Below the pieces are notes generated by a model. It did not search any database. It was not told where the DNA came from and saw only the letters and a program-made list of their open reading frames with translations. The translations under genes were made by a program, and so were the position numbers. Source: Methanothermobacter marburgensis str. Marburg (lineage in GTDB: Archaea; Methanobacteriota; Methanobacteria; Methanobacteriales; Methanothermobacteraceae). Taken from it: DNA of 32,000 nucleotides. This document shows, piece after piece, positions 879 through 13,268 of the stretch (position 1 is the stretch's first letter; each line of letters begins with the position of its first letter). The DNA lies in the NCBI RefSeq assembly GCF_000145295.1, contig NC_014408.1:1200001-1232000 (forward strand). Direction: 5' to 3'.

Positions 879-1502
879 ATGATGATTCATGGATTTAAAA
901 GACTTGAAAGTAAGAGAAACCATGTATACTTAATCCAATCAGGTACAGAAAGTTTCATCGTCAAAGTACACAAAACCAGCGAAAAATCTTACCTCGAATC
1001 AGAAAATGTGAAACTACTGAGGGATAAAGGAGTCAGAGTGCCTAGAATACTTGGTGTATCCAAGAATATCTTGATTGAGGAGTTCATCGAAGGAAAAACC
1101 ATTGGAGACCTGATATCTAGGGCAGACACAACATGGACAGAAAGCCTTGGAAAGTGGTTCTCAGAAATCCACAGTATAAAAAAACAGTCAAAGACCCTTT
1201 TAAAAGGTGACTGCAATCTTAAAAACTTCATATTCACAGAAAAAGAAATTTTTGGGGTTGATTTTGAATATATACACTATGGGAATCCCTATGATGATCT
1301 TGGAAAACTATGCTTCTTCATAATGGATAGTAACTCACAGATGTCCATGAATGACAAAAAACACCTTATAAAAAGGTTTCTGAGTGCCTATGAAGATCAC
1401 TCAAAAACTGTTGTAAATCCAAAAATTGTGGCTGAATACATGGAAATCGAGAAGAAAGGGGCCCTGATAAGGAGGGAACGTCATACTCCTAAATGGTTAT
1501 AA
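879..1502 (+). CDS. protein-kinase-like phosphotransferase (APH/ChoK/RIO-like fold)
   Basis: 207-aa ORF. It has an N-terminal nucleotide-binding-like strand with Lys (SFIVKVHK), a catalytic-loop-like GDCNLKNFIF and a DFE...GNPYDDLGKL segment, as in APH-type kinases. AT-rich codon usage. Confidence 0.6.
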   Translation: MMIHGFKRLESKRNHVYLIQSGTESFIVKVHKTSEKSYLESENVKLLRDKGVRVPRILGVSKNILIEEFIEGKTIGDLISRADTTWTESLGKWFSEIHSIKKQSKTLLKGDCNLKNFIFTEKEIFGVDFEYIHYGNPYDDLGKLCFFIMDSNSQMSMNDKKHLIKRFLSAYEDHSKTVVNPKIVAEYMEIEKKGALIRRERHTPKWL

Positions 1503-1531
1503 TTTGAATAATCGAGCTAGGAGGGATAATT

Positions 1532-1948
1532 CTGAGTAAAAAAACTTTCCTAACCGAAAGACAGAAAACCGTTCTTGAAATGAGGGAGAGGGGATGGTCC
1601 CAGAAGAAGATTGCAAGGGAATTGAAGACCACAAGACAGAACGTGTCAGCAATAGAAAGAAAGGCCATGGAGAACATAGAGAAATCCCGGAACACTCTAG
1701 ATTTTGTTAAATTCCTAAAATCACCTGTAAGAATACTTTGCAGACGCGGGGATACCCTTGATGAAATTATAAAGAGATTATTGGAAGAATCAAATAAAGA
1801 GGGCATACATGTAATACATGACTCAATTACACTCGCATTTCTGATAAGGGAAAAGGCCAGCCACAGGATCGTTCACAGGGTTGTTAAAAGCGATTTTGAA
1901 ATAGGAGTGACAAGGGACGGAGAAATTATCGTCGATCTAAATTCCTAG
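1532..1948 (+). CDS. tfx: DNA-binding transcriptional regulator Tfx (HTH, regulator of fmdECB)
   Basis: HTH segment LTERQKTVLEMRERGWSQKKIARELKTTRQNVSAIERKAMENI lies directly upstream of and co-oriented with fmdECB, as published for Methanothermobacter Tfx. The first ATG is at 1580, but the HTH-forming residues and a GGAGGG SD (1520-1525) lie upstream, so the 5' end is uncertain (CTG 1532 or ATT 1529). Confidence 0.8.
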   Translation: MSKKTFLTERQKTVLEMRERGWSQKKIARELKTTRQNVSAIERKAMENIEKSRNTLDFVKFLKSPVRILCRRGDTLDEIIKRLLEESNKEGIHVIHDSITLAFLIREKASHRIVHRVVKSDFEIGVTRDGEIIVDLNS

Positions 1949-1950
1949 AA

Positions 1951-1973
1951 TTTATAAAAAAATTTTTATAGTA
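1951..1973 (+). promoter_or_regulatory. candidate TATA region of the fmdECB promoter
   Basis: tttataaaaaaatttttata gives two TATA-like elements 53-75 nt upstream of the fmdE GTG, in the tfx-fmdE spacer. Confidence 0.5.
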
Positions 1974-2025
1974 CCTCCCATATACAACTAGATGCAGATA
2001 TATGCATATCGTGTGGTGATCAAAG

Positions 2026-2568
2026 GTGGGGCAGGTCAGAGAATACCTTGATTTAATAAAAAATTTCAGTGGGTTCGCAAGCCCGGGCAGTGTCATAGGA
2101 GCTCATATGTTACTAATAGCCAGGAAGGTCCTTGATTTTGAAGTCGATGAAGAAATTTATGTTACATGTGAAACGACAAACTGTTTACCCGACGCATTCC
2201 AGGCCATATGCAAATCAACAATAGGAAATGGGAGACTGAATATCCTGGACACTGGAAAAATGGCTGTCATCATCAACAGAAAGGGTATGCCTGGAGAAAC
2301 AGTCCAGGCTCTTAGAATAATACTGGATCCTGAAAAGACCGTCAATTACCCGATCATACATGAATGGTACATGAACACCCGCAAGGTATCCGCAGAAGAA
2401 GTGAATCCAGAACTCATAAGAGCCGGTGAAAATCTATATTCCTGGTATTTTGTTGATGTGATCGTTCCAGAAAAAGAAAAGAAGATAATTGAAATCTGTA
2501 ATCTTTGCAACGAACCTTTCATAAAAAGAAATGAGCTGGATCTCTGTCCAGCTTGTCTGAAAAGATAA
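2026..2568 (+). CDS. fmdE: molybdenum formylmethanofuran dehydrogenase subunit E
   Basis: 180-aa ORF with a GTG start 5 nt after GGTGAT and a C-terminal zinc-ribbon-like CNLCNEPF...CPAC. It is first in the E-C-B order known for the Methanothermobacter fmd operon. Confidence 0.85.
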   Translation: MGQVREYLDLIKNFSGFASPGSVIGAHMLLIARKVLDFEVDEEIYVTCETTNCLPDAFQAICKSTIGNGRLNILDTGKMAVIINRKGMPGETVQALRIILDPEKTVNYPIIHEWYMNTRKVSAEEVNPELIRAGENLYSWYFVDVIVPEKEKKIIEICNLCNEPFIKRNELDLCPACLKR

Positions 2569-2585
2569 ACATGAGGTGAAAAAAG

Positions 2586-3788
2586 ATGGGATTTGTGTTG
2601 GTACCAAAATCAGATTTCCAGATACCTCTGGAAGCAGATACCATAAGACCCGATCTGTTTGAAGGGCTGGATCTTGATGAAATTCGTTCCCTTCAAGTAT
2701 ACGAAGGGAACATCAAAAGACCCCTAGGCGAATTTTTTGAGATAGCAGAGACATCCCATGAAGATCAGTTAATACGGATCGATGGGGATGTCAGCAGGGT
2801 GAAGTATATCGGTTCAGGGATGAAATCCGGAAAAATCATCATAAACGGCGATGTCGGACTCCAGCTTGGCTGTGAAATGAAAGGCGGTGAAATAGAGGTA
2901 AATGGAAATGTTTCTTCATGGATCGGCATGGAAATGCATGGTGGCACCATAAAAATTAATGGAAACGCGGGGGATTATGTTGGCTGCGCATATAGGGGAG
3001 AGTGGCGTGGCATGAAAGGAGGTAAAATCATTATACAGGGTAATGCAGGGAACAATATTGGGGGTGGTATGATGGCCGGAGAAATTTATATAGGTGGAGA
3101 TGCAGGTAATTTCTGCGGCATCCGAATGAATGGGGGTGAAATAACAGTACGCGGGGATGCTGGAAGGGCCCCCGGAGCAGAGATGGTATCAGGTATCATC
3201 AAAATTCATGGACGGATCTCCTCTCTCCTCCCGGGATTCAAGGAGATCTCAACATTCAAAGAAGATGGATCCCTTATGATCCTATTCAAAGGAGATCTAT
3301 CCGAAAAAAATCCGGAGGGTAATCTATACATCAATTATAATAAGAACCTTCACATTCTAGAGAATGAGACCGATGAAGGGAGAGTCATCACAAAAAAGGG
3401 AATTAAAGTAATCTACAACAGTGGAAGTACGATCCGTGAAGGGCAGATAATAAAGGGAGGCAATAAACTCACAGATGATTATATAGATGAATGTGCACGC
3501 TGCTGTATTAGTCCTGAAGACTATAAGCTCCTAGGTGAACCCGAAAATGTTGTCGTATCATCACATGGAAATGAAGTTGTTCTGAGAGCTGTTGAGGACC
3601 CTGGAATCCAGATGGGAACAATATTCATACCCAGAGGTATATGGGCCAATGTGCTAACGCCACCGTATACCGAGTCAACCGGTTCCCCAATGTATAAAGG
3701 AGTGCCGGTTTATCTTAGAAAGGCTTCACAAGGTGAAAGGATCCTGAGTGCCGAGGAACTTGTAGAGGAATACGGGGTGGGAAAATGA
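2586..3788 (+). CDS. fmdC: molybdenum formylmethanofuran dehydrogenase subunit C (FwdC-like plus FwdD-like fusion)
   Basis: The N-terminal part carries repeated G-x-G beta-helix motifs (GGEIEVNGN, GGTIKINGNAGDY, GGKIIIQGNAGNN, GEIYIGGDAGNF, GGEITVRGDAG). The C-terminal ~130 aa resemble the molybdopterin-dinucleotide-binding FwdD domain. GAGGTGA SD at 2573-2579. Confidence 0.9.
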   Translation: MGFVLVPKSDFQIPLEADTIRPDLFEGLDLDEIRSLQVYEGNIKRPLGEFFEIAETSHEDQLIRIDGDVSRVKYIGSGMKSGKIIINGDVGLQLGCEMKGGEIEVNGNVSSWIGMEMHGGTIKINGNAGDYVGCAYRGEWRGMKGGKIIIQGNAGNNIGGGMMAGEIYIGGDAGNFCGIRMNGGEITVRGDAGRAPGAEMVSGIIKIHGRISSLLPGFKEISTFKEDGSLMILFKGDLSEKNPEGNLYINYNKNLHILENETDEGRVITKKGIKVIYNSGSTIREGQIIKGGNKLTDDYIDECARCCISPEDYKLLGEPENVVVSSHGNEVVLRAVEDPGIQMGTIFIPRGIWANVLTPPYTESTGSPMYKGVPVYLRKASQGERILSAEELVEEYGVGK

Positions 3789-5095
3789 GCGTCTATAAAA
3801 ATGTGACATGTCCCGTCTGCGGAGGGTCTTGTGATGACATAGAGGTTCTCTATGATGGGAAAACAATAAAAACAAGGAATGCTTGCAGGATGGGGAATGC
3901 AAAGTTTCAGGAGATGGTCAGCTCCCACAGAATACTTAGACCCCAGATTAAAACTGAAAGTGGTTTCAGATCCGCAGAATGGGATGAAGCCCTTGACGCT
4001 GCAGCAGAGATACTTACAGAGTCAAAAAGACCAACCCTATTCATGGGTAGTGAGATGTCAACTGAAGCCATGGCTGCAGGTCTTGAACTTGGTGAGTATC
4101 TAAATGCCATGGTGGATTCAAATGCAACCATATGTCATGGCCCCACATTAATGGGAATCCAGGAAGCTGGACAGAGCGCTGCTACGGCAGGTGAGATAAA
4201 GAATAGAGCTGACGTCATCATTTATTGGGGTACAAATGTTATGGACTCCATGCCTCGCCACATGTCACGTTACAGCATATTCATGCGCGGATTTTTCAGA
4301 GAACGTGGTAAAAAAGATAGAACTGTCATCTCCGTGGATCCCCGTGAAACAGCAACAACTAAAGCCTCCGATATCCATCTGCAGCTGAAACCAAACTCAG
4401 ATTATGAACTTTTTTCAGCACTGCTTACAGTTATAAGGGGCAATGAACCGCACAGGAGTATTGAGAGTATAACAGGGATATCAGTTGAAACCATAAAGGA
4501 AGTCGCAGACATAATGCTGAATGCGCAGTTTGGAGCCATCTATGGAGGTCTTGGACTTGCATCATCAGAAGGTAAGCATAGAAACGTTGAGATGGTTCTC
4601 AAACTGGTAGCTGCACTTAATGAACACACCAAATTTACAATAGGAGCCATAAGAGGTCATTGTAATGTTGCAGGATTTAATCAGGTGGCTTCATGGGAGT
4701 ATGGTTTCCCCTTTGGTGTTGATTTTACAAGGGGTTATCCACGCTACAACCCCGGAGAAACAACTATAGTCGATCTTCTCCAGAGAAAAGAATCCGATGC
4801 GGTCCTCGTTATATGTTCAGATCTTGGAGCTCACCTCCCCAAAGAATGCGTTGAGTATATGAAAGAGATTCCTGTAATATGCATAGATATTGCCCCATGT
4901 CCAACAACACTTGTATCTGATGTTGTGATCCCTGGAGTTATTGATGCTATGGAGTCCAGCGGCACCTTCTACCGCTTTGACAATGTTCCCATCCACCATA
5001 AGGCATTCACAACATCACCATTCCCTGAAACAGAGAGCAACGAACATACTCTTAGACAGATCCTTGAGAGGGTTAAATCAATTAAAGGCGAATAA
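3785..5095 (+). CDS. fmdB: molybdenum formylmethanofuran dehydrogenase subunit B (molybdopterin oxidoreductase)
   Basis: ATGA start/stop overlap with fmdC, N-terminal Cys motif CPVCGGSCDD...C, and a 436-aa MopB-type catalytic subunit. No in-frame stop. Confidence 0.9.
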   Translation: MSVYKNVTCPVCGGSCDDIEVLYDGKTIKTRNACRMGNAKFQEMVSSHRILRPQIKTESGFRSAEWDEALDAAAEILTESKRPTLFMGSEMSTEAMAAGLELGEYLNAMVDSNATICHGPTLMGIQEAGQSAATAGEIKNRADVIIYWGTNVMDSMPRHMSRYSIFMRGFFRERGKKDRTVISVDPRETATTKASDIHLQLKPNSDYELFSALLTVIRGNEPHRSIESITGISVETIKEVADIMLNAQFGAIYGGLGLASSEGKHRNVEMVLKLVAALNEHTKFTIGAIRGHCNVAGFNQVASWEYGFPFGVDFTRGYPRYNPGETTIVDLLQRKESDAVLVICSDLGAHLPKECVEYMKEIPVICIDIAPCPTTLVSDVVIPGVIDAMESSGTFYRFDNVPIHHKAFTTSPFPETESNEHTLRQILERVKSIKGE

Positions 5096-5102
5096 ATATC
5101 TG

Positions 5103-6182
5103 CTAACCATTTTTATTTTTTTCTCCTATGATACAGACATTCGTGGCTTTAATCAGAACTTGAAACTCTTCGCCCGTTCTTATACCAAGCTCAGTGACTG
5201 CGCCTGGAGTTACAGCCGAGGTCAGAACTATATCCCCTATCCTCAAGTTTACATAAACAATCCTTGAAGTTTCTATAATGTCTTCAACTGTACCCTTGAA
5301 GATATTCTGTGCAGATGCCATAAACGGATCAGCTGCTATCATTATATTTTCTGGTCTGATGGAAAGTATCACAGACCCCTCCCCGCAGTCAACTGTCCTG
5401 AAGATATTTGAATTAACATTTACAGAGGTGAGCCCATTCACCTGGCCTTCAACAGTCCCTTCAAGTATATTAGCACCCAGAAAATCTGCAACAAAGTAGG
5501 ACGATGGTTTATTGATGACTTCCTCCTTTTTACCCATCTGAATGATTTTTCCATGGTTCATCACCGCCACCTTATTTGAAAGCCACCATATATCATCAAG
5601 GTCATGTGTAACATGGATCACAGTGGTTTCAAAATTATCCCTGATATCTGCGATAAGTTTTCTTAGGGATATCTTTGTTCTCTGGTCAAGGGCACTGAAT
5701 GGTTCATCCATCAATAGCAATCGGGGATTCACTATGATTGCCCTTGCTATCGATGCCCTCTGGAGCTCACCTCCACTGAGGGTTCCAGGGTATCTATTCA
5801 GTACGTGATCTATACCCATCATAGCTGCGATTTCATGGACTTGTCTGTGAATATTTTCCTTCATCTCTGTCTGCTTACGAAGGCCGTAGGCTATATTCTC
5901 CTCCACGGTCATGTGAGGGAAGAGACAGTGATCCTGATATACTATGCTAACATCACGTTCCTCAGGTGGGAGGGTGGTTAGATCCGCCCCATCAAGAGAT
6001 ATCGTCCCCGAAATCGGTTCAAAGAACCCCATGATGGTCTCAAGAAAGATAGACTTACCACTACCAGTCGGGCCGATTATAACAAGATAATCTCCCCTCG
6101 AAAGGTGGAGTTCATCTACCCTGACTACGAATTCGCCAAGGTCGATTTCTAAATTATCTATATCCAGAAAACTCATTCCCAT
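5103..6182 (-). CDS. modC: molybdate/tungstate ABC transporter ATP-binding protein with C-terminal TOBE-like domain
   Basis: Walker A GPTGSGKS, signature LSGGELQR and Walker B LLLMDEP, plus a ~120-aa C-terminal extension typical of ModC/WtpC. The ORF track starts at TTG 6200; ATG 6182 follows TGGGGG. Confidence 0.85.
   Translation of the reverse strand: MGMSFLDIDNLEIDLGEFVVRVDELHLSRGDYLVIIGPTGSGKSIFLETIMGFFEPISGTISLDGADLTTLPPEERDVSIVYQDHCLFPHMTVEENIAYGLRKQTEMKENIHRQVHEIAAMMGIDHVLNRYPGTLSGGELQRASIARAIIVNPRLLLMDEPFSALDQRTKISLRKLIADIRDNFETTVIHVTHDLDDIWWLSNKVAVMNHGKIIQMGKKEEVINKPSSYFVADFLGANILEGTVEGQVNGLTSVNVNSNIFRTVDCGEGSVILSIRPENIMIAADPFMASAQNIFKGTVEDIIETSRIVYVNLRIGDIVLTSAVTPGAVTELGIRTGEEFQVLIKATNVCIIGEKNKNG
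5110..5122 (+). terminator. oligo-T tract (T5-A-T7), candidate archaeal terminator of fmdECB
   Basis: tttttattttttt lies 15-27 nt after the fmdB stop, inside the last codons of the convergent modC. Confidence 0.45.
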
Positions 6183-6963
6183 AAGCCCCCATTTTTTCAA
6201 GGAAAAATATTGTTATGAATGAAATTATCATAAGGAAGATACCGGATGCCACAGCCATCTCCACGTTTCCATAGGATAAATTAAGATACAGAGATATAGG
6301 CAGCGTATCTGTTTTCTGATAGGTACCTCCAGCAACTATCAGTACCGCTCCAAAGCAGCCTATGCATCTTGAAAAGGTAATTATTGTTGCAGCTAATATT
6401 CCATCCCTTGATAAAGGGATCATGATATTCCTGAATGTCTCAAATTCTGTATATCCAAGGGAACGGGAAACAAATTTGAGTCTCCTATCTATGTTACAGA
6501 ATGTGGAGTAACATATTCTGACCGTATACGGTAAAGAGACAAAGAACTGTGCACAGATGACTCCAAGATCCGTGAAGACTATCTGAATACCGAGTCCATC
6601 CATCATATAATTTAGAGGGGTGTTTCCAAGAAATATGAGAAGCATTATACCTATAAGAATTTCAGGGAATGCTATAGGAATATCCAGCACTGTTTTAACA
6701 ATGGATTTCCCTCTGAAGGAGTCCTCTGATAGTGAATAAGCAATGAGCAGCGCAGATAACATCACAATCACTGTTGTTATAGTGGATGTTAAAAGAGATA
6801 ATTTCACTGAGTGGATCATATCAGCACTTGTGAATGAATTCAGGATGGATTGCGGAGAGGATACTGTCCAGAGTGAAATACATATTATAAAAAATGCGGC
6901 CACAAAGATGACCGCAAAGAATCTGCAAGTACCTCTGAAAATACTCACTCGCTCAATGGACAA
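6154..6963 (-). CDS. modB: molybdate/tungstate ABC transporter permease
   Basis: 269-aa polytopic membrane protein placed between the binding-protein and ATPase genes. It overlaps both neighbours. Confidence 0.8.
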   Translation of the reverse strand: MSIERVSIFRGTCRFFAVIFVAAFFIICISLWTVSSPQSILNSFTSADMIHSVKLSLLTSTITTVIVMLSALLIAYSLSEDSFRGKSIVKTVLDIPIAFPEILIGIMLLIFLGNTPLNYMMDGLGIQIVFTDLGVICAQFFVSLPYTVRICYSTFCNIDRRLKFVSRSLGYTEFETFRNIMIPLSRDGILAATIITFSRCIGCFGAVLIVAGGTYQKTDTLPISLYLNLSYGNVEMAVASGIFLMIISFITIFFLEKMGAYGNEFSGYR

Positions 6964-7652
6964 AACCGTTCAACTCCCATCAGTGCTGCTAACCCTGCTA
7001 TCGTTGTTCCATAAAATATTACTCTTTTATCTGATGCCATGGCCATGATATCCTCAAATGTACCGTTAGCTACAGTAGAACCGGTTACCACTAAAACATC
7101 AGAATTATGAATTATCTTCTTATTGCTTTTTTTTGCATCAAATACATCTACACCATATTTTTTACCCTTATTTCCAGGATTCAGATCTGTAACCTGCAAT
7201 CTGTCTCCAAATGTCTCGTGAAGTTTCCTTACAAACGCCGGTTGAAACCCAAGCAAAGCAACTCTGTCATATCCCAGCAATTCAAGGTAATCTGAAAGTA
7301 ATTCAGCACACCTTTCAGGAGCGTTTCCAGTGCAGTGAACTGTCCTATCAATGAAACCCTTCTTCCTCATGAGTGCATTGAAAGTAGCTATCAAACACGA
7401 TTGTTTCCCTTTTACTAAAAGTTCCCCGAGGGTTCCTCTGAAATGAGTGGGAGTAGCTGTGAAGCACTCCCCTACAGTACCATCTTCAAGAGTCGCTCTG
7501 AGCATGACCTCTCTCCCCTCAACAAGAGGATAATCCTTGATGGTTGATGTATCAAGGAGAGGGTTCTTCACAGAGATCTCGACATATGTGGACTCCATGG
7601 CTGACGAATGTATCAGATAGTTCATTTTATCCCTGATAAACTCATGTATCAT
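6945..7652 (-). CDS. DUF364-like (putative heavy-metal chelation, Rossmann-like) protein, paralogue b
   Basis: 235 aa. Motifs VALLGFQP and DVLVVTGSTVANGTFEDIM...VIFYGTTIAG parallel those of ORF 8459..9169. The family assignment is from memory of the DUF364 pattern. Confidence 0.6.
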   Translation of the reverse strand: MIHEFIRDKMNYLIHSSAMESTYVEISVKNPLLDTSTIKDYPLVEGREVMLRATLEDGTVGECFTATPTHFRGTLGELLVKGKQSCLIATFNALMRKKGFIDRTVHCTGNAPERCAELLSDYLELLGYDRVALLGFQPAFVRKLHETFGDRLQVTDLNPGNKGKKYGVDVFDAKKSNKKIIHNSDVLVVTGSTVANGTFEDIMAMASDKRVIFYGTTIAGLAALMGVERFCPLSE

Positions 7653-7673
7653 GGTATCAGATCCTGGTTTAAA

Positions 7674-8456
7674 TCAGAAAATGACTTTGAACCCCCATTT
7701 TTCCCATATAACCCTGGCCTCATCTGATTTAATGTATTCAACGAATTCTTTTGATGTTTCAACGTTTCCTGAAATTGAAGTGACCGCTGCGGGTATTGTC
7801 TGGTTCTTTGCTCCCTCGATTTCAATCATTTCCAGCTTTGATTTACTGTTGTTCCATGTCAACATGTCCTCCCATATTATAACTGCATCTACCTGTCCTG
7901 AGAGGATGTATGTTAAGAGCTGATTAACTGTTGGAGTCTTTGCAACTAAATTTTCATTTATATTTACGCCCTCTTTATCAAGCATTTTCTGGGCGACTTT
8001 GCCTATCGCGCATGCCTTGGGATCTCCTATCGCAACTCTCACGTTTTCTTTACCCAGATCTTTAAGGGAGGTTATGTTCTTCGGATTTCCCCTTTTAACG
8101 GCTATGACGGGTTTATGTGAGGTTACATTCACAATGGTATCATTGATTATGTAACCCTTTTCTTTTGCCTTGTCCATTGTCGTATATTCGCCTGTTATGA
8201 GTACATCGCCCTTTTTTGATGTCATCAGTGTTGCAAGAAGTTCTCCTGAACCCCCATACTGAACATTAACCTTTTTTCCTGTCTTTTTCTCAAAATTAGT
8301 TATTATCTCATTCATTGGTTTCATGAGCCCTGCCCCTGCAAGGACTGTGATCTCTGATCCCTTCATAGTCTTTGAATTTCCTGTGATAAGATACGCTCCT
8401 GTAACCGCTGAAAGGATCAGCAACCCTATTACAAACGCCATTATCTTCTTATCCAT
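7674..8456 (-). CDS. modA: molybdate-type ABC transporter substrate-binding protein
   Basis: N-terminal membrane anchor, then ITVLAGAGLMKPMNEIITNFEKKTGKKVNVQYGGSGELLATL, which resembles the ModA family. Confidence 0.8.
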   Translation of the reverse strand: MDKKIMAFVIGLLILSAVTGAYLITGNSKTMKGSEITVLAGAGLMKPMNEIITNFEKKTGKKVNVQYGGSGELLATLMTSKKGDVLITGEYTTMDKAKEKGYIINDTIVNVTSHKPVIAVKRGNPKNITSLKDLGKENVRVAIGDPKACAIGKVAQKMLDKEGVNINENLVAKTPTVNQLLTYILSGQVDAVIIWEDMLTWNNSKSKLEMIEIEGAKNQTIPAAVTSISGNVETSKEFVEYIKSDEARVIWEKWGFKVIF

Positions 8457-8458
8457 GA

Positions 8459-9169
8459 TCAGGCCTCCATTACCCTGTAGATTATTCCTCCATCTTTTTC
8501 ATGTAACATGCCCTCATTGAACCTTATTTTCTTTAGAATATTAACAGGATCAGTTATTTCAACCCCTGCAATCATATCAACCCCGTATTCAAAAAAAACA
8601 TCTGTCATTGGCGTTGTGGGTCCTATGATAGCCACAAAAGCATCAAGTTCTGCCAGTGCAAGGTAACGTTCTGTGCTGTGATTGACCAGTGTGCTGCCAG
8701 TCACTGCAAGTACATCAACCCGGGGGATAATCTGTTCAGCCGCTGTTTCAGGAAAAACACCCCTTTTAGGATTGACCTTAAATGGATTGATCTCCAGAAT
8801 ATAGAACTCGTCCGAAACCGTCCTTATCCTGTCAGTGTAGCGGCGTGGGAATTCACCCACCATAGCGATTTTTCGATTTCGGCATTCCTCCATCAGTATA
8901 TCAAATGCATTGCATCGTTTACCACCTCCCTCGATCACTGAGTTAACAGTAGCAATTCCCAGGCTGGAATAAAATGGGTCCCATGACCTTGAAAGTTCAA
9001 GTAATTCATGAGTCATCTCTGGAATTTCAAAATCTCTGATGAATCCATTATTACTGGCTATACCGCAGGAGCTGCTCCAAACAGCCGTCCATGATCTGCC
9101 TATGGCCACATCCCTTACTCTGATTTCAGGCATGTTCTCAATCTCATCCAGTATATCATCAAGTATCAT
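8459..9169 (-). CDS. DUF4213/DUF364-like (putative heavy-metal chelation) protein, paralogue a
   Basis: VRDVAIGRSWTAVWSSSCGIASN (DUF4213-like), then IAMVGEFP and DVLAVTGSTLVNHSTERYL...VAIIGPTTPM (DUF364-like). The ORF track starts at 9238, inside the polyferredoxin gene. ATG 9169 gives 236 aa with no overlap. Confidence 0.65.
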   Translation of the reverse strand: MILDDILDEIENMPEIRVRDVAIGRSWTAVWSSSCGIASNNGFIRDFEIPEMTHELLELSRSWDPFYSSLGIATVNSVIEGGGKRCNAFDILMEECRNRKIAMVGEFPRRYTDRIRTVSDEFYILEINPFKVNPKRGVFPETAAEQIIPRVDVLAVTGSTLVNHSTERYLALAELDAFVAIIGPTTPMTDVFFEYGVDMIAGVEITDPVNILKKIRFNEGMLHEKDGGIIYRVMEA

Positions 9170-9201
9170 AATAGCACCAGTATAATGGCAATTTCGGGCA
9201 T

Positions 9202-10200
9202 TTATTTCTGGAGTGCCGTCTTTATGATGTGTTCCCATGCCACTGACTTTAGATTCCTGATCCTTAGTTCAGACCTTTCAATAGAGAGGAGTCCATCGGG
9301 ACAGACACTGGAGCATGCTCCGCAGAATACGCAGAATTTCTCATCGATCCGGGCAGTACCATTTATTATACTGATTGCATTACAGGGACAAACATCCACA
9401 CACGCGTGGCATGACTCACCCCTGCATCGCTCATCTGCCTGGCCTATGGTTCCTCTGATGGGTTTTTTAACGGTGATCGCATTTGCCGGGCATATTTCCA
9501 TACACCAACCACAGTGAGCACATTTTTCATCAATTGTTATGACAGCACCCTCAACAGTGGCCTTCAGTTCCTCCTTATACATGCATGTCAGACAGCTCAT
9601 ACGGATGGCGCCAACAGGACATATCCTTTTGCATATGCCGCAGTAGAGACATTTATCCTCATCCACCCGGATTCCATCGGCTATCGCCATATTTGATGAA
9701 TCCGGGTCTCTCCAGCTTATTTCAATGGCTGATACAGGACACATAGCTGCACATTCACCACAATAGATGCATTTTTCCATTGATACATTTATCTCCCCTT
9801 TTACAAGGGATTTACGTTCAGGAAGATCCCTGATGGTTAAGAGTGCATTCCTTGGACATGCATCGGCGCAATTACCGCATAAAAAGCATTTTTCGTCATC
9901 AATTTCAAGTTTAAAGTCCCAGAACGGATATTCATCGGCGCCCCTTATGCTTTTACCATCCTTCTGGAGATCTATGGCTCCGAAGATGCATACTGAAGCA
10001 CATAACCCACATAGAACACACTTCTCCTTGTTGAAGGACACTCTGTTCATTTTGATTAAACCCCTCGCTATTGGGAGAAGAGGAGCTATATCTATAGCGT
10101 CCACAGGGCATGTCTCTGAACATAACCCACAACCCGTGCATAGATCCGGATTGTAATTCAGTGTCCTCCTTTCAGAACCCATCCTTTCATTAACCAACAT
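9202..10200 (-). CDS. polyferredoxin with eight [4Fe-4S]-type Cys motifs (FwdF-like)
   Basis: Eight motifs counted: CTGCGLCSETCP, CVLCGLCASVC, CFLCGNCADACP, CIYCGECAAMCP, CLYCGICKRICP, CAHCGWCMEICP, CRGESCHACVDVCP, CVFCGACSSVCP. Confidence 0.85.
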   Translation of the reverse strand: MLVNERMGSERRTLNYNPDLCTGCGLCSETCPVDAIDIAPLLPIARGLIKMNRVSFNKEKCVLCGLCASVCIFGAIDLQKDGKSIRGADEYPFWDFKLEIDDEKCFLCGNCADACPRNALLTIRDLPERKSLVKGEINVSMEKCIYCGECAAMCPVSAIEISWRDPDSSNMAIADGIRVDEDKCLYCGICKRICPVGAIRMSCLTCMYKEELKATVEGAVITIDEKCAHCGWCMEICPANAITVKKPIRGTIGQADERCRGESCHACVDVCPCNAISIINGTARIDEKFCVFCGACSSVCPDGLLSIERSELRIRNLKSVAWEHIIKTALQK

Positions 10201-10393
10201 CAGTATCTACCTCAGAAATAGCGCCGTTTGGGCAGTTAGAGATGCAAAGCCTACAATTATCACATTTATCATTTATCACAAGGGGAAATCCGTTGTCCTC
10301 AATTATTGCATCCTTTTCACAGATGAGAATGCAGAGGCCTTTTCCCGCGCAGTTTTCAACACCGCTACATTTCTCCCTATTGATGACTATCAT
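10190..10393 (-). CDS. small ferredoxin (FwdG-like size)
   Basis: One canonical motif (CDNCRLCISNCP) plus an atypically spaced Cys cluster (CSGVENCAGKGLCILIC). ATG 10393 is preceded by GAGGTTGG. The ORF track starts at 10423. Confidence 0.75.
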   Translation of the reverse strand: MIVINREKCSGVENCAGKGLCILICEKDAIIEDNGFPLVINDKCDNCRLCISNCPNGAISEVDTDVG

Positions 10394-10444
10394 AGACCAA
10401 CCTCGAAATGTAATTTTTTGCATATCGTATATTCCAAAAGTCCA

Positions 10445-10452
10445 TATATAAA
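10445..10452 (-). promoter_or_regulatory. TATA box candidate for the Fdx-polyFdx-mod operon
   Basis: TTTATATA on the minus strand, about 52 nt upstream of ATG 10393. Confidence 0.45.
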
Positions 10453-10543
10453 TCTTTCTTAATGGACCTCATGAAAACAGTACTGTTTTACATGGCAGCT
10501 GAAGACCCCCGCAGTTATAATGGATATCCTCACATATTTCCTG

Positions 10544-10555
10544 AAAAATAAAAAA
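10544..10555 (-). terminator. oligo-T terminator candidate (T6-A-T5 on the minus strand)
   Basis: aaaaataaaaaa on the plus strand, immediately downstream of the stop of ORF 10562..10957. Confidence 0.45.
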
Positions 10556-10561
10556 TTAAAA

Positions 10562-10957
10562 TTAATCTGTTCTTCCAGGTCCAAAGAAGTACCCCAGACC
10601 TAGAAGGCCCACTATCGCCACTATACCAACTATGGCATAGACAGGTAGCCCGGTCTCCGGGTTAGCTGAACCTGAGGCGCTGCTGACCTCATAGGCCTTA
10701 CCCTGGTTTTCGCCCGCTGAGGAATGAGTTGCTGCCTCCACTCCAGGTGCTGATGTTGAAACATCTGAACCCTGTGATTCCTCGTGATGTGGCTCCCCCT
10801 TGTCTGCTGATGTACCCGGTGCCTGTGGCTGTCCTGGATTTGATGGTGCTGTCGGTGTGGATCCTCCATCGGGGGATAGTGCGAATGCTGAGCTCTTCGT
10901 GGCAGCGTAAAGCTTCTCCCTGACCCTTGAGAGAAGGTCCGGGTTCATGTACTGCAT
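10562..10957 (-). CDS. low-complexity P/S/G/A/T-rich protein with a single C-terminal TM anchor
   Basis: 131 aa. No N-terminal signal-like segment. C-terminal LPVYAIVGIVAIVGLLGLGYFF. An oligo-T tract follows the stop. Two other frames are also open on the same strand, so frame choice rests on the TM tail. Confidence 0.35.
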   Translation of the reverse strand: MQYMNPDLLSRVREKLYAATKSSAFALSPDGGSTPTAPSNPGQPQAPGTSADKGEPHHEESQGSDVSTSAPGVEAATHSSAGENQGKAYEVSSASGSANPETGLPVYAIVGIVAIVGLLGLGYFFGPGRTD

Positions 10958-11112
10958 GACTCACTCATTAATACACGCATAATAAAGGTTAATCTGGAAA
11001 GCCCTTTAAATGTTCAAAAAATCGGAATCGATCAATCAACTGAAGAGGCCATTTAGTGCCATTCAATGCACCGGTTATGTAAAATTATATTTAATAAATT
11101 AATCACAGGGTG

Positions 11113-11808
11113 CTAGATCTCCAGGGTTACCCTGAGGGGTATATGATCAGATAACCTTGGCCTGGTCTCTATAATTTCACCTGCCGGAGGGTGCCAGACG
11201 TCAAGGATCTTCACTCCTTCCGGGACAAAGAGGTAATCAATCTGGTATTTCCCCCCGTTAGGTGTCATGAATGTGAATGGATCTTCCTCCTCCCTGAGAA
11301 CATCCCTGAATCCAAGTTCAGAGAGTCTTCCGGTCATCTCCTCTGCAAGGAGTGCTAACCTCCTCAGGGATGGGCTGAAGTTTTTATTGATGTTGAAATC
11401 ACCGCCAATTATGATCAGGTCCTCTCCCTCCTCAATGTAGTTATACAGGAGGTCAAGGAACTCAGAAAAGTCACTATCTGCTGGCCCAATGTAATTGTAT
11501 ATGCTAAAGAGGGAAAGACTATTTCCTCCGATTTCTATTCTGCAGGAAACATAAAAATCTTCTATACAGTGGTTGTCTGAGATTTCAAGGTAGTTCCTTT
11601 TCATGGAATCCAGCATGAGATCCTTATGAAGAAGTAATGTGTTCATCTCCCCGCGGAAGGTATGGTAATTCCACCTTACCTCATTGGGTATCATGTAGAC
11701 CTCCTGGAAAAATCCTGCATCAAATTCCAGTTCCCCCATATAACTCCAGAGTTTCCTCCGCCTGTAGGATGCCCGGTTCAGGTTCCATGTCAGAACCTTA
11801 AGTTCCAT
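11113..11808 (-). CDS. endonuclease/exonuclease/phosphatase (EEP) family protein
   Basis: N-terminal LKVLTWNLN, IIIGGDFNI, and C-terminal SDHIPLRVTLEI are the conserved EEP catalytic motifs. GGGGGTGAT SD. Confidence 0.75.
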   Translation of the reverse strand: MELKVLTWNLNRASYRRRKLWSYMGELEFDAGFFQEVYMIPNEVRWNYHTFRGEMNTLLLHKDLMLDSMKRNYLEISDNHCIEDFYVSCRIEIGGNSLSLFSIYNYIGPADSDFSEFLDLLYNYIEEGEDLIIIGGDFNINKNFSPSLRRLALLAEEMTGRLSELGFRDVLREEEDPFTFMTPNGGKYQIDYLFVPEGVKILDVWHPPAGEIIETRPRLSDHIPLRVTLEI

Positions 11809-11851
11809 TCAATCACCCCCAGGTTCAGGTTCCATGTCAGAACCTTAAGTT
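11775..11851. repeat. 30-bp perfect direct repeat, period 47 bp
   Basis: ggttcaggttccatgtcagaaccttaagtt occurs at 11775-11804 (codons 2-11 of the EEP gene) and again at 11822-11851 (its 5' flank). Confidence 0.95.
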
Positions 11852-11914
11852 ATCCTATAGAAAATTGTGATGCCCATTAACTTAAACACAACCGGAAACA
11901 TTTATATGGGAAGA

Positions 11915-11949
11915 ATGTAATATATTACCTAAACATGTAATATATTACC
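11915..11949. promoter_or_regulatory. two copies of atgtaatatattacc, each with the 12-bp perfect palindrome gtaatatattac, period 20 bp
   Basis: Copies at 11915-11929 and 11935-11949, between a TATA-like tttatat (11901-11907) and ATG 11968. Confidence 0.6.
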
Positions 11950-11967
11950 ATAGGAGTTTTTGAGAAG

Positions 11968-12795
11968 ATGAAAATAAATAAGATCCATACACTAACAGCC
12001 CTCATAACACTTATGGGGCTCTTTGCAACACTATCTGGCCTCCTGGACCAGAATACATACATCAACGACTCATTATCAGCAACTGCACAGATGATGGGCC
12101 AGGACCTCGTGACACTCACCACAGGGATCCCCCTCCTAATCATTTCAGCATACCTTAGCCGTTCCTCGGCCAAAGCCAGGCTGCTGTGGATGGGTGGAAT
12201 GTTCTACTTCACCTACACCTATGCCTCCATGGCCTTCCTCGCATCCTACAACAGTCTCTTCCTCCTGTATGTGGGCATACTTGCCTTATCACTCTACGGC
12301 CTCATGGGAGAGCTGTTCACAACCACCTACAGGGTTAAGGTTGATGAAAAAAAATCAGGCTTCACAGCCATCTACCTCACCCTCACCGGATTAATGCTGG
12401 CAGCCATGTGGATCAAGATGATCACAGATTCCCTGATAACCGGCATGGCCCCGGGGGCCCTTGAGGGCTACACAACCCTCGTCATACAGGCACTCGACCT
12501 CGGCGTCGTGGTTCCAGCGGCCCTCCTCACATCATACTTCCTCCTGAAGAGAGAAGTGTGGGGCTACATACTTGCACCGGTATTCCTTGTCAAGGTATCA
12601 TTACTGGGAACAGCCATACTCTCAATGGTGGCCTTCATGGCCATGGAGGGGGTCCCATTCAGCTGGGGGCAGGCTGCCTTCTTTATGGTCCTCACCTTCA
12701 CAGGCCTGGCCGTCACCGGGATTTTCTACCGGGGAATGGCAATCACATCAGGGAGGTTGACACTGGATGAAGGATATGCAGGCAATACGGGATGA
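11968..12795 (+). CDS. polytopic membrane protein, unknown family
   Basis: 275 aa with about 7-8 hydrophobic segments. AGGAG upstream. Overlaps the MarR gene by 29 nt. Confidence 0.7.
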   Translation: MKINKIHTLTALITLMGLFATLSGLLDQNTYINDSLSATAQMMGQDLVTLTTGIPLLIISAYLSRSSAKARLLWMGGMFYFTYTYASMAFLASYNSLFLLYVGILALSLYGLMGELFTTTYRVKVDEKKSGFTAIYLTLTGLMLAAMWIKMITDSLITGMAPGALEGYTTLVIQALDLGVVVPAALLTSYFLLKREVWGYILAPVFLVKVSLLGTAILSMVAFMAMEGVPFSWGQAAFFMVLTFTGLAVTGIFYRGMAITSGRLTLDEGYAGNTG

Positions 12796-13264: not shown

Positions 13265-13268
13265 GCAT

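What the first reader, a model, noticed from the sequence alone, without database searches (positions are those of the whole stretch)
5103..9169. Two DUF364-like paralogues interleaved with modA, modB and modC in one translationally coupled operon
The minus-strand order is Fdx, polyFdx, DUF364a, modA, DUF364b, modB, modC. The junctions are an 11-nt overlap, a 32-nt gap, a 2-nt gap, a 21-nt gap, a 19-nt overlap and a roughly 29-nt overlap. This leaves little room for internal promoters.

ORFs 8459..9169 (236 aa) and 6945..7652 (235 aa) share their architecture. IAMVGEFP parallels VALLGFQP. DVLAVTGSTLVNHSTERYL...VAIIGPTTPM parallels DVLVVTGSTVANGTFEDIM...VIFYGTTIAG. Both look like the DUF4213/DUF364 'putative heavy-metal chelation' family, which has no experimentally defined function.

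An ABC importer needs only A, B and C. One paralogue placed before the binding protein and one before the permease, next to the Mo-enzyme operon, suggests an undescribed accessory pair for Mo/W handling. Possible roles are metal discrimination, buffering, or hand-over to molybdopterin cofactor assembly.
Basis: partly seen in the sequence, partly recalled or inferred. Interest (0 to 1): 0.7.

Follow-up and report, generated by a model that had tools for sequence, protein, structure and literature searches.

The report
Two DUF364 proteins inside molybdate-importer operon
A heat-loving methanogen carries two anciently diverged proteins of unknown function inside its molybdate-uptake operon; the link between this protein family and molybdenum or tungsten uptake was already published, but one copy belongs to a previously undefined His-Cys3 subfamily that elsewhere is fused to the transporter's ATPase.

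Summary
On the minus strand, Fdx, an FwdF-type polyferredoxin, DUF364a, ModA, DUF364b, ModB and ModC lie head to tail with the stated gaps and overlaps. Both odd ORFs pass the Pfam DUF364 threshold.

The window is Methanothermobacter. It is the published "ModA1B1C1" locus next to tfx-fmdECB. The DUF364 link to Mo/W transporters is not new: Miller 2010 cited this very locus, and Day 2024 reported a modA-modB-DUF364-modC operon cofit with nifH.

What I add:
- The two proteins are not recent paralogues. They belong to two old subfamilies: "a" is canonical (3L5O-like), and "b" is truncated and carries an inserted loop.
- Subfamily b has His106, Cys107, Cys115 and Cys231 invariant in 88 of 88 sequences.
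- Of 80 b loci, 35 abut Mod genes and 57 have a Mo-linked gene within 5 kb.
- a and b recur as adjacent pairs.
- b occurs fused to a full ModC (22 contigs), to FmdE and to NifU_N.
- The order a-modA-b recurs in three other Methanobacteriales lineages and in one unplaced, more distant contig.

Most likely the pair are cytoplasmic accessory factors that pass imported Mo to cofactor assembly. The mechanism is inferred, not shown. I rate this a new variant of a known kind, of moderate interest.

The parts
10445..10452 (-). Consensus archaeal TATA box (TTTATATA), likely promoter of the whole cluster
   Evidence: This is the only match on the minus strand within 5103..10600. It lies 22-29 nt upstream of ATG 10423. 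A GAGGT Shine-Dalgarno-like site precedes the alternative ATG at 10393.
10190..10423 (-). Small 2x[4Fe-4S]-type ferredoxin (77 aa; 67 aa if it starts at 10393)
   Evidence: Pfam Fer4 families. Orthologues lie upstream of DUF364a clusters in L086 and L114.
9202..10200 (-). FwdF-type polyferredoxin (332 aa), probably the polyferredoxin partner of the Mo formylmethanofuran dehydrogenase
   Evidence: NCBIfam NF042909 FwdF at 419 bits against a cut-off of 375; seven Fer4 stretches. The role with Fmd is inferred.
8459..9169 (-). DUF364a: canonical DUF4213+DUF364 protein (236 aa; MTH925 equivalent)
   Evidence: PF04016 at 136.5 bits and PF13938 at 46 bits. The profile hits 3L5O at E 1.4e-32. The AF2 model has pLDDT 91.5 and matches 3L5O by Foldseek at TM 0.85.
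7674..8456 (-). ModA, molybdate-type substrate-binding protein with an N-terminal membrane anchor or signal
   Evidence: TIGR01256 at 99.9 bits (cut-off 62.5) and PF13531 at 200 bits. The best solved relatives are bacterial-type ModA proteins, top hit 4KD5 at E 3.5e-16.
6945..7652 (-). DUF364b: His-Cys3 subfamily of DUF364 (235 aa), C-terminally truncated
   Evidence: PF04016 at 50.9 bits, partial match. The AF2 model has pLDDT 95.5 and a two-domain DUF364 fold; Foldseek gives 3NPG at E 2e-8 and TM 0.59. Subfamily invariants are shown.
7308..7337 (-). Codons of the His106-Cys107-x7-Cys115 loop of DUF364b
   Evidence: Invariant in 88 of 88 full-length subfamily members. hhalign shows the loop as an insertion relative to subfamily a. 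Codons were checked.
6960..6962 (-). Codon of Cys231 (C-terminal ERFC motif) of DUF364b
   Evidence: Invariant in 88 of 88 sequences. The codon overlaps the TTG start candidate of modB.
6154..6963 (-). ModB permease (alternative GTG start at 6948 gives a GTGA overlap with the DUF364b stop)
   Evidence: TIGR01581 at 227 bits (cut-off 210.3). PDB hits are 2ONK_C and 3D31_C.
5103..6200 (-). ModC ATPase with a C-terminal TOBE regulatory domain (likely start ATG 6176)
   Evidence: ABC_tran at 114 bits and TOBE at 54.7 bits. Full-length match to M. acetivorans ModC 3D31_A at E 1.4e-68.
1580..5095 (+). Context: tfx, fmdE, fmdC and fmdB (Mo formylmethanofuran dehydrogenase operon), convergent on modC with stop codons 7 nt apart
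   Evidence: Pfam TFX_C, FmdE, GXGXG+Molydop_binding and Molybdopterin. Kaster 2011 (PMC3087415) describes this neighbourhood.

Best explanation
The region is a single operon of a Methanothermobacter genome. It is the locus published as ModA1B1C1 beside tfx-fmdECB. It encodes a ferredoxin, an FwdF-type polyferredoxin, a ModABC molybdate importer, and two cytoplasmic DUF364-fold proteins from two anciently diverged subfamilies.

The DUF364 proteins are not transporter subunits. They are conserved accessory factors of Mo/W acquisition. My proposed mechanism is:
- DUF364b (the His-Cys3 subfamily) works at the cytoplasmic face of the importer, next to ModC. It takes over the incoming metal, or a sulfur- or Fe-S-bound form of it, on its invariant His/Cys site.
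- DUF364a (canonical, with the family's adenosyl-type ligand pocket) acts with FmdE and Moco-synthesis proteins to feed Mo into the pterin cofactor of the Fmd enzyme encoded next door.

Shown:
- fold and family of both proteins;
- operon anatomy;
- enrichment next to Mo/W importers and Moco genes;
- recurrent a-b pairing;
- ModC::b, FmdE::b and NifU_N::b fusions;
- invariance of the His/Cys residues.

Inferred:
- docking on ModC;
- metal or cluster binding;
- the nature of a's ligand;
- the direction of hand-over.

I give about 0.8 to the general claim (a Mo/W-linked cytoplasmic accessory role) and about 0.3-0.4 to this specific mechanism.
For: Anatomy:
- Seven genes lie head to tail behind a single consensus TATA box.

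Family and fold:
- Pfam hits for both proteins.
- Model a matches 3L5O at TM 0.85. Model b matches 3NPG at TM 0.59 with E 2e-8.
- Both keep the family's pocket hallmarks named by Miller 2010. These are Gly after beta1 (a G105, b G135), an acidic residue after beta2 (a E126, b D156), the TGST motif (a T157, b T190), and Asn residues (a N76 and N163, b N92 and N196).

Conserved order:
- a-modA-b-modB-modC in M. wolfeii.
- a-modA-b followed by a cut ORF in a Methanothermobacter MT-2-like contig. There fmdECB and tfx are rearranged but still linked.
- a-modA-b at the end of the more distant contig L146.

Census:
- Of 80 species-level b loci, 35 directly abut ModA, ModB or ModC on the same strand, and 28 have ModA plus ModB within 4 genes. 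11 directly abut an a-type gene.
- 57 of the 80 have at least one Mo-linked gene within 5 kb.
- Of 79 a loci, 20 abut Mod components and 45 have a Mo-linked gene within 5 kb.
- Other neighbour families are MoCF_biosynth (14 loci), ModE-like HTH (10), XdhC, cysteine desulfurase, an Se/S carrier, MoaA/MoaC, NifH, NifX-domain proteins, FdhD and FmdE.

Fusions:
- P0186 is a full-length ModC including its TOBE domain (30% identical to the window ModC over 357 aa) joined to a complete b domain. It was recovered on 22 contigs from several samples, in an operon of SBP_bac_11, permease and the fusion.
- P0099 is FmdE::b. P0145 and P0148 are NifU_N::b.

b-specific site:
- H106, C107, C115 and C231 are invariant in 88 of 88 sequences. 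The HCx7C loop is an insertion relative to subfamily a.

Genetics in a relative:
- In M. maripaludis the modABC plus DUF364 operon is cofit with nifH under N2 fixation (Day 2024).
Against: - No binding, interaction or activity data exist for either protein.
- The M. maripaludis phenotype may be a polar effect on modC, as its authors say. I could not verify that its DUF364 is b-type.
- The His-Cys3 set could be a purely structural Zn site that staples the shortened C-terminus.
- I could not obtain model coordinates, so the spatial clustering of the four residues is unverified.
- Some b-type genes are not near any Mo gene, for example M. fervens and A. woodii.
- An a-type gene in Acidianus sits by hydrogenase maturation genes.
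- a-b pairs also accompany FecCD-type and NMT1_2-type importers, so the substrate may not always be Mo or W.
- The only characterised DUF364 enzyme does SAM chemistry unrelated to metals.
- Many ModABC systems work without any DUF364.
Confidence: 0.4

Rival explanations
1. One or both DUF364 proteins are enzymes. They use SAM or another adenosyl compound to make or modify a small molecule, such as a chelator for the imported metal or a cofactor side group. They would not be metal carriers.
For: - The only characterised DUF364 protein, Orf5, cyclises 4''-methyl-SAM and releases MTA.
- Both window proteins keep the adenosyl-type pocket residues.
- Fold search picks up SAM-dependent enzymes weakly, for example HcgC and BioC.
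- A class I SAM methyltransferase lies directly downstream of a-type genes in 16 of 79 loci (21 loci have one within three genes).
- A methyltransferase::b fusion exists, P0362.
- TrmO_N (SAM-binding) genes are neighbours.
- Miller 2010 proposed synthesis of a pterin, flavin or siderophore-like compound.
Against: - ModA-type proteins bind the bare oxyanion, so no chelator is needed for uptake.
- No radical-SAM C-methyltransferase partner, as in the Orf5 clusters, lies in the cluster.
- The rival does not explain the invariant His-Cys3 site or the ModC fusion.
Confidence: 0.2
2. The DUF364 proteins are sensors or regulators of the importer. They would gate ModBC according to the cytoplasmic Mo/W or redox state, complementing or replacing TOBE-mediated trans-inhibition.
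For: - There is a ModC::b fusion, and b lies directly after modC in many bacteria.
- Where b directly follows modC, ModC is short (231-261 aa, with no room for a TOBE domain) in 14 of 19 loci.
- The closest solved ModC (3D31) is the trans-inhibited transporter.
Against: - The window ModC and the fusion protein both keep a TOBE domain, so b does not simply replace it.
- Short ModC, TupC and WtpC proteins are common without DUF364 (my own knowledge).
- Links to FmdE, MoCF_biosynth, XdhC and FdhD point downstream to cofactor assembly rather than to transport control.
Confidence: 0.15
3. The pair serves Fe-S cluster or polyferredoxin maturation for the Fmd complex, not Mo handling. Their place in the mod operon would only reflect co-regulation with fmd.
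For: - The cluster starts with a ferredoxin and an 8-cluster-type polyferredoxin.
- Fdx and polyFdx orthologues lie upstream of a-type genes in L086 and L114.
- NifU_N::b fusions exist.
- NifU_N, Mrp/ParA-Fer4 ATPases and NifX-domain genes lie beside b.
- b has Cys and His ligands.
Against: - M. wolfeii and the MT-2-like contig keep a-modA-b-modB without Fdx or polyFdx.
- Most b loci in bacteria have Mod genes but no ferredoxin.
- The fusion to ModC is hard to explain this way.
Confidence: 0.1
4. There is no functional link. The DUF364 genes are passengers whose position among the mod genes is historical accident.
For: - Positions within mod operons vary widely.
- Some family members are far from any Mo gene.
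Against: - 35 of 80 and 20 of 79 loci from many phyla directly abut Mod genes. A genome has only one to a few mod operons among thousands of genes.
- Independent fusions to ModC and FmdE exist.
- Linkage is kept through rearrangement in Methanobacteriales.
Confidence: 0.03

Closest known systems
Methanococcus maripaludis modA-modB-DUF364(MMP_RS02675)-modC operon (Day et al. 2024, bioRxiv 10.1101/2024.03.05.583561)
   Same: A DUF364 gene is embedded in an archaeal modABC operon. That operon is cofit with nifH, and the authors propose Mo chelation for cofactor synthesis. Methanocaldococcus loci with the same order carry b-type genes.
   Different: That operon has one DUF364 gene, between modB and modC. 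This window has two, from different subfamilies, before modA and before modB, and the cluster is joined to Fdx/polyFdx and lies next to fmd rather than nif. The subfamily of the M. maripaludis protein was not verified here.
Dhaf4260 (PDB 3L5O) and PH1506 (PDB 3NPG), the structural founders of DUF364 (Miller et al. 2010, PMC2954201)
   Same: They have the same two-domain fold: enolase-N-like plus Rossmann-like. DUF364a matches at TM 0.85 and 0.83. The conserved pocket residues are retained. The 2010 paper already listed MTH924 and MTH926 of this locus as context partners.
   Different: DUF364b is much more divergent (TM 0.59 and 0.52). It lacks about 45 C-terminal residues of the Pfam domain. 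It has an inserted HCx7C loop plus a C-terminal Cys that 3L5O-type proteins lack.
Orf5, the DUF364 4-methylazetidinecarboxylate synthase of the bonnevillamide cluster (PMC12930334)
   Same: It belongs to the same Pfam family and is the only member with a demonstrated activity. It binds a SAM derivative in the interdomain pocket.
   Different: It sits in a secondary-metabolite context with a B12-radical-SAM C-methyltransferase. No such partner is present here, and there is no evidence that a or b turn over SAM.
ModBC of Methanosarcina acetivorans (PDB 3D31) and ModBC-A of Archaeoglobus fulgidus (2ONK)
   Same: The window ModC aligns over its full length with 3D31_A, including the TOBE regulatory domain (E 1.4e-68). 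ModB matches 2ONK_C and 3D31_C.
   Different: Those structures contain no DUF364 partner. The window ModA is closer to bacterial ModA (4KD5) than to the archaeal WtpA class.
Cytoplasmic Mo-handling proteins: Mop/ModG molbindins, NifQ, and MoeA/MogA (from my own knowledge of the field)
   Same: They fill the same conceptual niche, between the importer and cofactor assembly. Mop genes and MoCF_biosynth genes are neighbours of DUF364 genes in related loci.
   Different: They have unrelated folds and motifs. NifQ uses a Cx4Cx2Cx5C motif, and Mop uses TOBE domains. DUF364 has none of these.

Membership tests
Pfam DUF364 (PF04016) / DUF4213 (PF13938) | Score above the curated gathering threshold for PF04016 | tested here: met
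   a scores 136.5 bits and b scores 50.9 bits, against a cut-off of 23. b matches only profile positions 4-98 of 147.
Pfam DUF364 (PF04016) / DUF4213 (PF13938) | N-terminal DUF4213 domain detectable by sequence | tested here: inconclusive
   a scores 46 bits against a cut-off of 23.5, so it is met. b has no hit, but its AF2 model has an N-terminal beta-rich domain and aligns over 238 columns with 3NPG.
Pfam DUF364 (PF04016) / DUF4213 (PF13938) | Two-domain fold of 3L5O/3NPG (enolase-N-like plus Rossmann-like) | tested here: met
   Model a has TM 0.85 to 3L5O at E 3e-19. Model b has TM 0.59 to 3NPG at E 2e-8 and TM 0.52 to 3L5O. These are predictions, not solved structures.
Pfam DUF364 (PF04016) / DUF4213 (PF13938) | Conserved pocket residues of Dhaf4260 (Gly129, Glu148, Thr174, Asp180, Thr182, Asn83) | tested here: met
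   By alignment, a has G105, E126, T157, N163, S165 and N76, and b has G135, D156, T190, N196, T198 and N92. The Asp180 position is Asn in both.
DUF364 subfamily b (His-Cys3), defined here | Invariant His-Cys-x7-Cys loop and C-terminal Cys, with a truncated C-terminus | tested here: met
   The window protein has H106, C107, C115 and C231. All four are invariant in 88 of 88 full-length members from bacteria and archaea. DUF364a lacks them.
ModABC molybdate ABC importer | ModA-type binding protein above the curated cut-off | tested here: met
   TIGR01256 at 99.9 bits against 62.5. WtpA scores only 17.8 bits and there is no TupA hit.
ModABC molybdate ABC importer | ModB and ModC equivalog models above their cut-offs | tested here: inconclusive
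   ModB passes TIGR01581 (227 against 210.3) but not TIGR02141 (158.8 against 182.6). ModC is below both modC_ABC (219.8 against 285) and WtpC (349 against 440). The closest solved structures are ModBC 3D31 and 2ONK.
ModABC molybdate ABC importer | Substrate is molybdate rather than tungstate | not testable with these tools
   Kaster 2011 assigns Mo to this system by its position next to fmdECB. No binding data exist.
SAM-cyclising DUF364 enzymes (Orf5 type) | Partnered with a B12-radical-SAM C-methyltransferase in a biosynthetic cluster | tested here: not met
   No such gene lies in the cluster or its flanks.
SAM-cyclising DUF364 enzymes (Orf5 type) | Catalytic and positioning residues Tyr61 and Glu204 of Orf5 | not testable with these tools
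   The Orf5 sequence is not held and no supplement is available.
FwdF polyferredoxin | NCBIfam NF042909 above its cut-off, with multiple 4Fe-4S motifs | tested here: met
   419.4 bits against 375; seven Fer4 stretches.

The most novel reading that the evidence does not exclude
DUF364b is a new kind of metallochaperone that docks on the ATPase of an oxyanion ABC importer. It would receive Mo (or W) on an invariant His-Cys3 site, possibly as a thio- or Fe-S-bound species. Together with DUF364a and FmdE it would channel the metal to a specific enzyme's pterin cofactor. This would be a dedicated importer-to-cofactor relay, and it could also explain how cells keep Mo and W apart.
Probability: 0.2. 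Interest if true: 0.8.

Novelty: new variant of a known kind. Interest (0 to 1): 0.5.

Why it matters
How cells move molybdate or tungstate from the importer to cofactor assembly is poorly understood, particularly in archaea and anaerobes. It is also unclear how organisms with both W and Mo isoenzymes, such as Methanothermobacter with Fwd and Fmd, route the right metal.

A widespread, uncharacterised protein family sits exactly at that step. Subfamily b alone has at least 2,385 90%-identity clusters. Splitting the family into a canonical subfamily and a His-Cys3 subfamily gives concrete, testable handles. So do the ModC, FmdE and NifU_N fusions and the recurrent a-b pairing. The handles are four residues to mutate, two partners to test for binding, and genetically tractable hosts.

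The locus itself and the general association were already published, so the advance is incremental rather than a surprise.

Tried and rejected
- Model coordinates are not exposed, so I could not measure whether H106, C107, C115 and C231 cluster in space.
- The first metagenome scan with the full a alignment failed for lack of a conserved stretch. It worked after I dropped the distant 283-aa group.
- I tried to place MMP_RS02675 in subfamily a or b through a profile search with names and through cluster names. No Methanococcus entry surfaced, so this is unresolved.
- No supplement is held for the Orf5 paper, so Orf5 active-site residues could not be mapped.
- I tested the idea that b replaces the TOBE domain of ModC. 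ModC is short in 14 of 19 loci where b follows it. However, the window ModC and the fusion protein keep TOBE, so I rejected this as a general rule.
- I looked for a shared operator. The 10-mer ACGATATGCA occurs exactly twice in the window, near the fmdE and Fdx starts, and a related block is conserved in M. wolfeii. As the longest word picked after the fact, its chance expectation is about 0.04, so it is suggestive only.
- The jackhmmer count for NMT1-type binding proteins (33 loci) is probably inflated by cross-recruitment of ModA. I rely on the cluster-based count of 13.
- I rejected a recent tandem duplication as the origin of the two genes. Each has much closer relatives in other phyla than the other copy.

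Full report
**1. What is in the sequence**

On the minus strand between 10423 and 5103 lie seven ORFs head to tail (sequence read):
- a small ferredoxin, 10423..10190;
- a 332-aa polyferredoxin, 10200..9202;
- DUF364a, 9169..8459;
- ModA, 8456..7674;
- DUF364b, 7652..6945;
- ModB, 6963..6154;
- ModC, 6200..5103.

The size of the two overlaps depends on the start codon chosen. For b/modB it is 19 nt with TTG 6963 or 4 nt (GTGA) with GTG 6948. For modB/modC it is 23, 29 or 47 nt. The 9169 start of DUF364a is supported by a GGTG 6 nt upstream, by alignment with homologues, and by the 236-aa length of the Delta H protein.

Pfam and NCBIfam confirm the assignments:
- DUF364a: PF04016 at 136.5 bits and PF13938 at 46 bits.
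- DUF364b: PF04016 at 50.9 bits, partial, and no PF13938 hit.
- ModA: TIGR01256 at 99.9 bits against a cut-off of 62.5.
- ModB: TIGR01581 at 227 bits against 210.3.
- ModC: ABC_tran plus TOBE.
- Polyferredoxin: FwdF model at 419 bits against 375.

The only consensus archaeal TATA box on this strand in the cluster is at 10452..10445, upstream of Fdx.

**2. Where it comes from**

DUF364b is 100% identical to a Methanothermobacter protein. Its 90% cluster includes M. marburgensis, M. thermautotrophicus and related strains.

The plus strand carries a RIO-type kinase, tfx, fmdE, fmdC and fmdB. This operon converges on modC, and the stop codons are 7 nt apart.

This is the neighbourhood described by Kaster et al. 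2011 (PMC3087415). They name the transporter ModA1B1C1 (MTH920, 921, 924) "directly adjacent" to fmdECB (MTH917-919) and tfx (MTH916). They skip the two interleaved genes.

**3. The two DUF364 proteins are distant relatives, not recent paralogues**

- They share 29% identity over 114 residues (BLASTP E 6e-8). hhalign gives probability 97.3%.
- The profile of subfamily a hits the solved DUF364 structures strongly: 3L5O at E 1.4e-32 and 3NPG at E 2e-25. Its AF2 model (pLDDT 91.5) superposes on 3L5O at TM 0.85.
- The profile of subfamily b hits only 3NPG, at E 2e-5. Its AF2 model (pLDDT 95.5) has the same two-domain fold but only TM 0.59.
- b lacks about 45 C-terminal residues of the Pfam domain. 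It carries an inserted loop relative to a.
- Each has closer relatives in other phyla than the other copy. A Methanolliviera b-type scores 204 bits on the b profile and 39 on the a profile.
- Both keep the pocket residues that Miller et al. 2010 singled out. These are Gly after beta1, an acidic residue after beta2 that typically binds an adenosyl ribose, the TGST motif and two Asn residues.

**4. A signature for subfamily b**

I aligned 91 b-type sequences from archaea and many bacterial phyla; 88 are full length across these columns. In those 88, His106, Cys107, Cys115 and Cys231 are invariant. So are N92, A93, G135, Q137, P138, D156, T190 and G191. Subfamily a has no conserved Cys or His.

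Four invariant ligand-type residues suggest a metal or Fe-S site. They could equally form a structural Zn site that ties down the shortened C-terminus. I could not get coordinates to check their proximity.

The subfamily is large. It has 236 representatives of 50%-identity clusters at E <= 1e-30. It has at least 2,385 90%-identity clusters at E <= 1e-15.

**5. Neighbourhood census**

*Subfamily b: 80 species-level genome loci*
- 35 directly abut ModA, ModB or ModC on the same strand.
- 28 have ModA and ModB within four genes.
- 11 directly abut an a-type gene.

Orders seen in these loci:
- modA-modB-b-modC in Methanocaldococcus, the order reported for M. maripaludis;
- modA-modB-modC-b in many Clostridia, Halodesulfovibrio and Treponema;
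- b-modA-modB-modC in Desulfobacterales.

Other recurrent neighbours, checked with Pfam and NCBIfam:
- a 340-aa MoCF_biosynth protein (14 loci);
- a ModE-like HTH protein (10 loci; best hit TIGR00637 but below its cut-off);
- an NMT1_2-type binding protein with its permease and ATPase (13 and 12 loci);
- cysteine desulfurase, XdhC, an Se/S carrier, MoaA/MoaC and NifH.

Precomputed annotations add NifU_N, NifX-domain proteins and Mrp/ParA-Fer4 ATPases. Within 5 kb, 57 of 80 loci have at least one Mo-linked gene. Many loci are short contigs, so this is a lower bound.

*Subfamily a: 79 metagenome loci*
- 20 abut Mod components, with a recurrent modA-a-modB-modC order. The 90% cluster of a close a-type relative is named ANME-2/Methanosarcinales, but I did not tie those loci to that cluster.
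- FmdE-like genes lie directly upstream in 16 loci, and within 5 kb in 32.
- A class I SAM methyltransferase lies directly downstream in 16 loci; 21 loci have one within three genes.
- 45 of 79 loci have a Mo-linked gene within 5 kb.
- One bacterial locus reads Fdh, FdhE, FmdE, FdhD, MoCF_biosynth, a, SBP_bac_11, permease, ATPase.

A genome holds one to a few mod operons among thousands of genes, so this enrichment is far beyond chance. It agrees with the published statements.

**6. Conservation of the interleaved order**

- M. wolfeii has a-modA-b-modB-modC convergent on fmdB-fmdC-fmdE, at 58-64% identity, but with no Fdx or polyFdx.
- A Methanothermobacter MT-2-like contig has fmdE-fmdC-fmdB, tfx on the opposite strand, then a-modA-b followed by an ORF cut at the contig end. 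Linkage therefore survives rearrangement.
- A more distant contig, L146 (a is 34% identical), ends with a-modA-b.
- a-b pairs also occur with other importer classes. In Methanolliviera, behind a FecCD/Peripla_BP_2 system and beside FmdB/D-like and FmdE genes, a and b overlap by 4 nt. They occur next to a FecCD system in L165. They occur with NMT1_2-type systems in Atribacterota and Dehalococcoidia.
- Neither subfamily needs the other. Each occurs alone in mod operons.

**7. Fusions**

Among b-type representatives, several are fused to other domains.
- P0186 (623 aa) is a complete ModC including its TOBE domain, 30% identical to the window ModC over 357 residues at E 2e-43. It is followed by a complete b domain with the His/Cys motif. 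It was recovered on 22 contigs from several samples, in an operon of SBP_bac_11, permease and the fusion. It is therefore not an assembly error.
- P0099 is FmdE::b. It was seen on one contig, beside an NMT1_2 importer and a TrmO_N gene.
- P0145 and P0148 are NifU_N::b.
- P0362 is a methyltransferase::b fusion.

Other fusions (aminotransferase IV, barstar, GNAT, PfkB) may be gene-calling artefacts. I ignored them.

**8. Interpretation**

The data firmly place both proteins in the cytoplasmic biology of Mo/W acquisition and cofactor maturation. I give this about 0.8.

The most economical mechanism is the following. b works at ModC and takes over the imported metal, or a sulfur- or Fe-S-bound form of it, on its His-Cys3 site. 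a, with an adenosyl-type pocket, works with FmdE and Moco-synthesis proteins to load the pterin cofactor of the adjacent Fmd enzyme. Every mechanistic step here is inference, and I give it 0.3-0.4.

Rivals:
- Enzymes doing SAM-type chemistry on a small molecule. Orf5 is the only characterised member, and methyltransferase neighbours and fusions fit this.
- Regulators of the importer. ModC is short in 14 of 19 loci where b follows it, but TOBE is retained here and in the fusion.
- Fe-S or polyferredoxin maturation. NifU_N fusions and the Fdx/polyFdx genes upstream fit this, but M. wolfeii keeps the pair without those genes.
- No functional link, which is very unlikely.

The Fdx and polyferredoxin are probably electron-transfer partners of Fmd. 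fmdECB has no F subunit of its own, and the protein passes the FwdF model. That role is my inference.

**9. Comparison with what is known**

The closest published case is the M. maripaludis modA-modB-DUF364-modC operon. It is cofit with nifH, and its authors caution about polarity. Miller et al. 2010 had already listed this very locus among the context partners of DUF364 and proposed heavy-metal chelation through a pterin, flavin or siderophore-like product. [quoted passage not shown]

New here are:
- the split into two subfamilies;
- the His-Cys3 signature;
- the recurrent a-b pairing;
- the ModC, FmdE and NifU_N fusions;
- the links to MoCF_biosynth, ModE-like, XdhC and FdhD genes;
- the conservation of the two-gene interleaved order in Methanobacteriales.

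I rate this a new variant of a known kind, with interest about 0.5.

**10. Regulation (partly followed)**

The 10-mer ACGATATGCA occurs exactly twice in the 32-kb window. One copy is at 10428..10419, just downstream of the Fdx TATA box. The other is in reverse orientation at 2003..2012, 14 nt upstream of fmdE. Tfx is reported to bind downstream of the fmdECB promoter.

In M. wolfeii the promoter in front of DUF364a keeps a similar block. TCGACATGCAAATTATTGCATAACGATG there corresponds to ACGATATGCAAAAAATTACATTTCGAGG here, with 22 of 28 positions identical. Its fmdE leader keeps ATGTATATCG.

This hints at co-regulation of fmd and the mod cluster. It also suggests that Fdx and polyFdx were inserted or lost between a conserved promoter and DUF364a. 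Because I picked the word after the fact, the statistics are weak (expectation about 0.04).

Noticed in passing
window 25178..26020 (+): A 280-aa heliorhodopsin gene sits in a strictly anaerobic, thermophilic methanogen. Pfam PF18761 scores 319 bits, and the match to the Thermoplasmatales heliorhodopsin 6IS6 is E 1e-57. The retinal-binding Lys context is conserved (SLVAKTLLAW here against SLVAKSALAW). No paper in the library mentions heliorhodopsin together with Methanothermobacter.
   Followed up: partly
window 10419..10428 (-) and 2003..2012 (- as reported; reverse orientation relative to fmdE): The exact 10-mer ACGATATGCA occurs only twice in the window, both times just downstream of a promoter: the Fdx-mod cluster and fmdECB. 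A related block is conserved in front of DUF364a and fmdE in M. wolfeii. It is a candidate shared operator, possibly for Tfx.
   Followed up: partly
window 1..12000 versus 12001..32000: The tfx-fmdECB-mod block and its flanks have G+C of about 0.37-0.45, against about 0.47-0.55 for most of the rest of the window. Only the 20-22 kb type I R-M segment is also low, at about 0.42-0.44. This may be a compositionally distinct island.
   Followed up: no
window 5095..5103: The fmdB (+) and modC (-) stop codons are only 7 nt apart. Transcription termination of each convergent operon must therefore occur inside the other's coding region.
   Followed up: no
window 9202..10423 compared with L001 6267..6420 and L169 6325..6750: Fdx and the FwdF-like polyferredoxin head the cluster here, and orthologues precede a-type genes in L086 and L114. 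They are absent in M. wolfeii and in the MT-2-like contig, where DUF364a is the first gene.
   Followed up: partly
window 6945..7652 (homologues in other strains): In the original Delta H annotation the b-type gene appears only as a 101-aa fragment (AAB85421.1). In strain KEPCO-1 it appears as three fragments (177, 64 and 67 aa). A later M. thermautotrophicus genome record has a 226-aa form. These may be sequencing errors or strain-specific decay.
   Followed up: no
window 7455..7457 (residue 66 of DUF364b): The window protein has Ala where 80 of 91 subfamily members, including M. wolfeii, have Asp. The widely conserved FTD motif reads FTA here.
   Followed up: no
L059, L056, L039, L018, L179 (related loci): A recurrent cluster contains a ModE-like HTH protein, a MoCF_biosynth protein, DUF364b (with or without a, or fused to FmdE), and an NMT1_2/SsuA-like ABC importer. 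XdhC, cysteine desulfurase and an Se/S carrier often lie nearby. This may be an unrecognised importer class tied to Mo/W cofactor metabolism.
   Followed up: partly
window 17267..23264 (-): A complete type I restriction-modification system is present: hsdM (590 aa), hsdS (390 aa) and hsdR (1013 aa).
   Followed up: no
window 10562..10957 (-): This is a 131-aa ORF with a low-complexity Pro/Ser/Gly/Ala-rich region and a C-terminal hydrophobic segment. It has no Pfam hit. It lies directly upstream of the cluster promoter.
   Followed up: no
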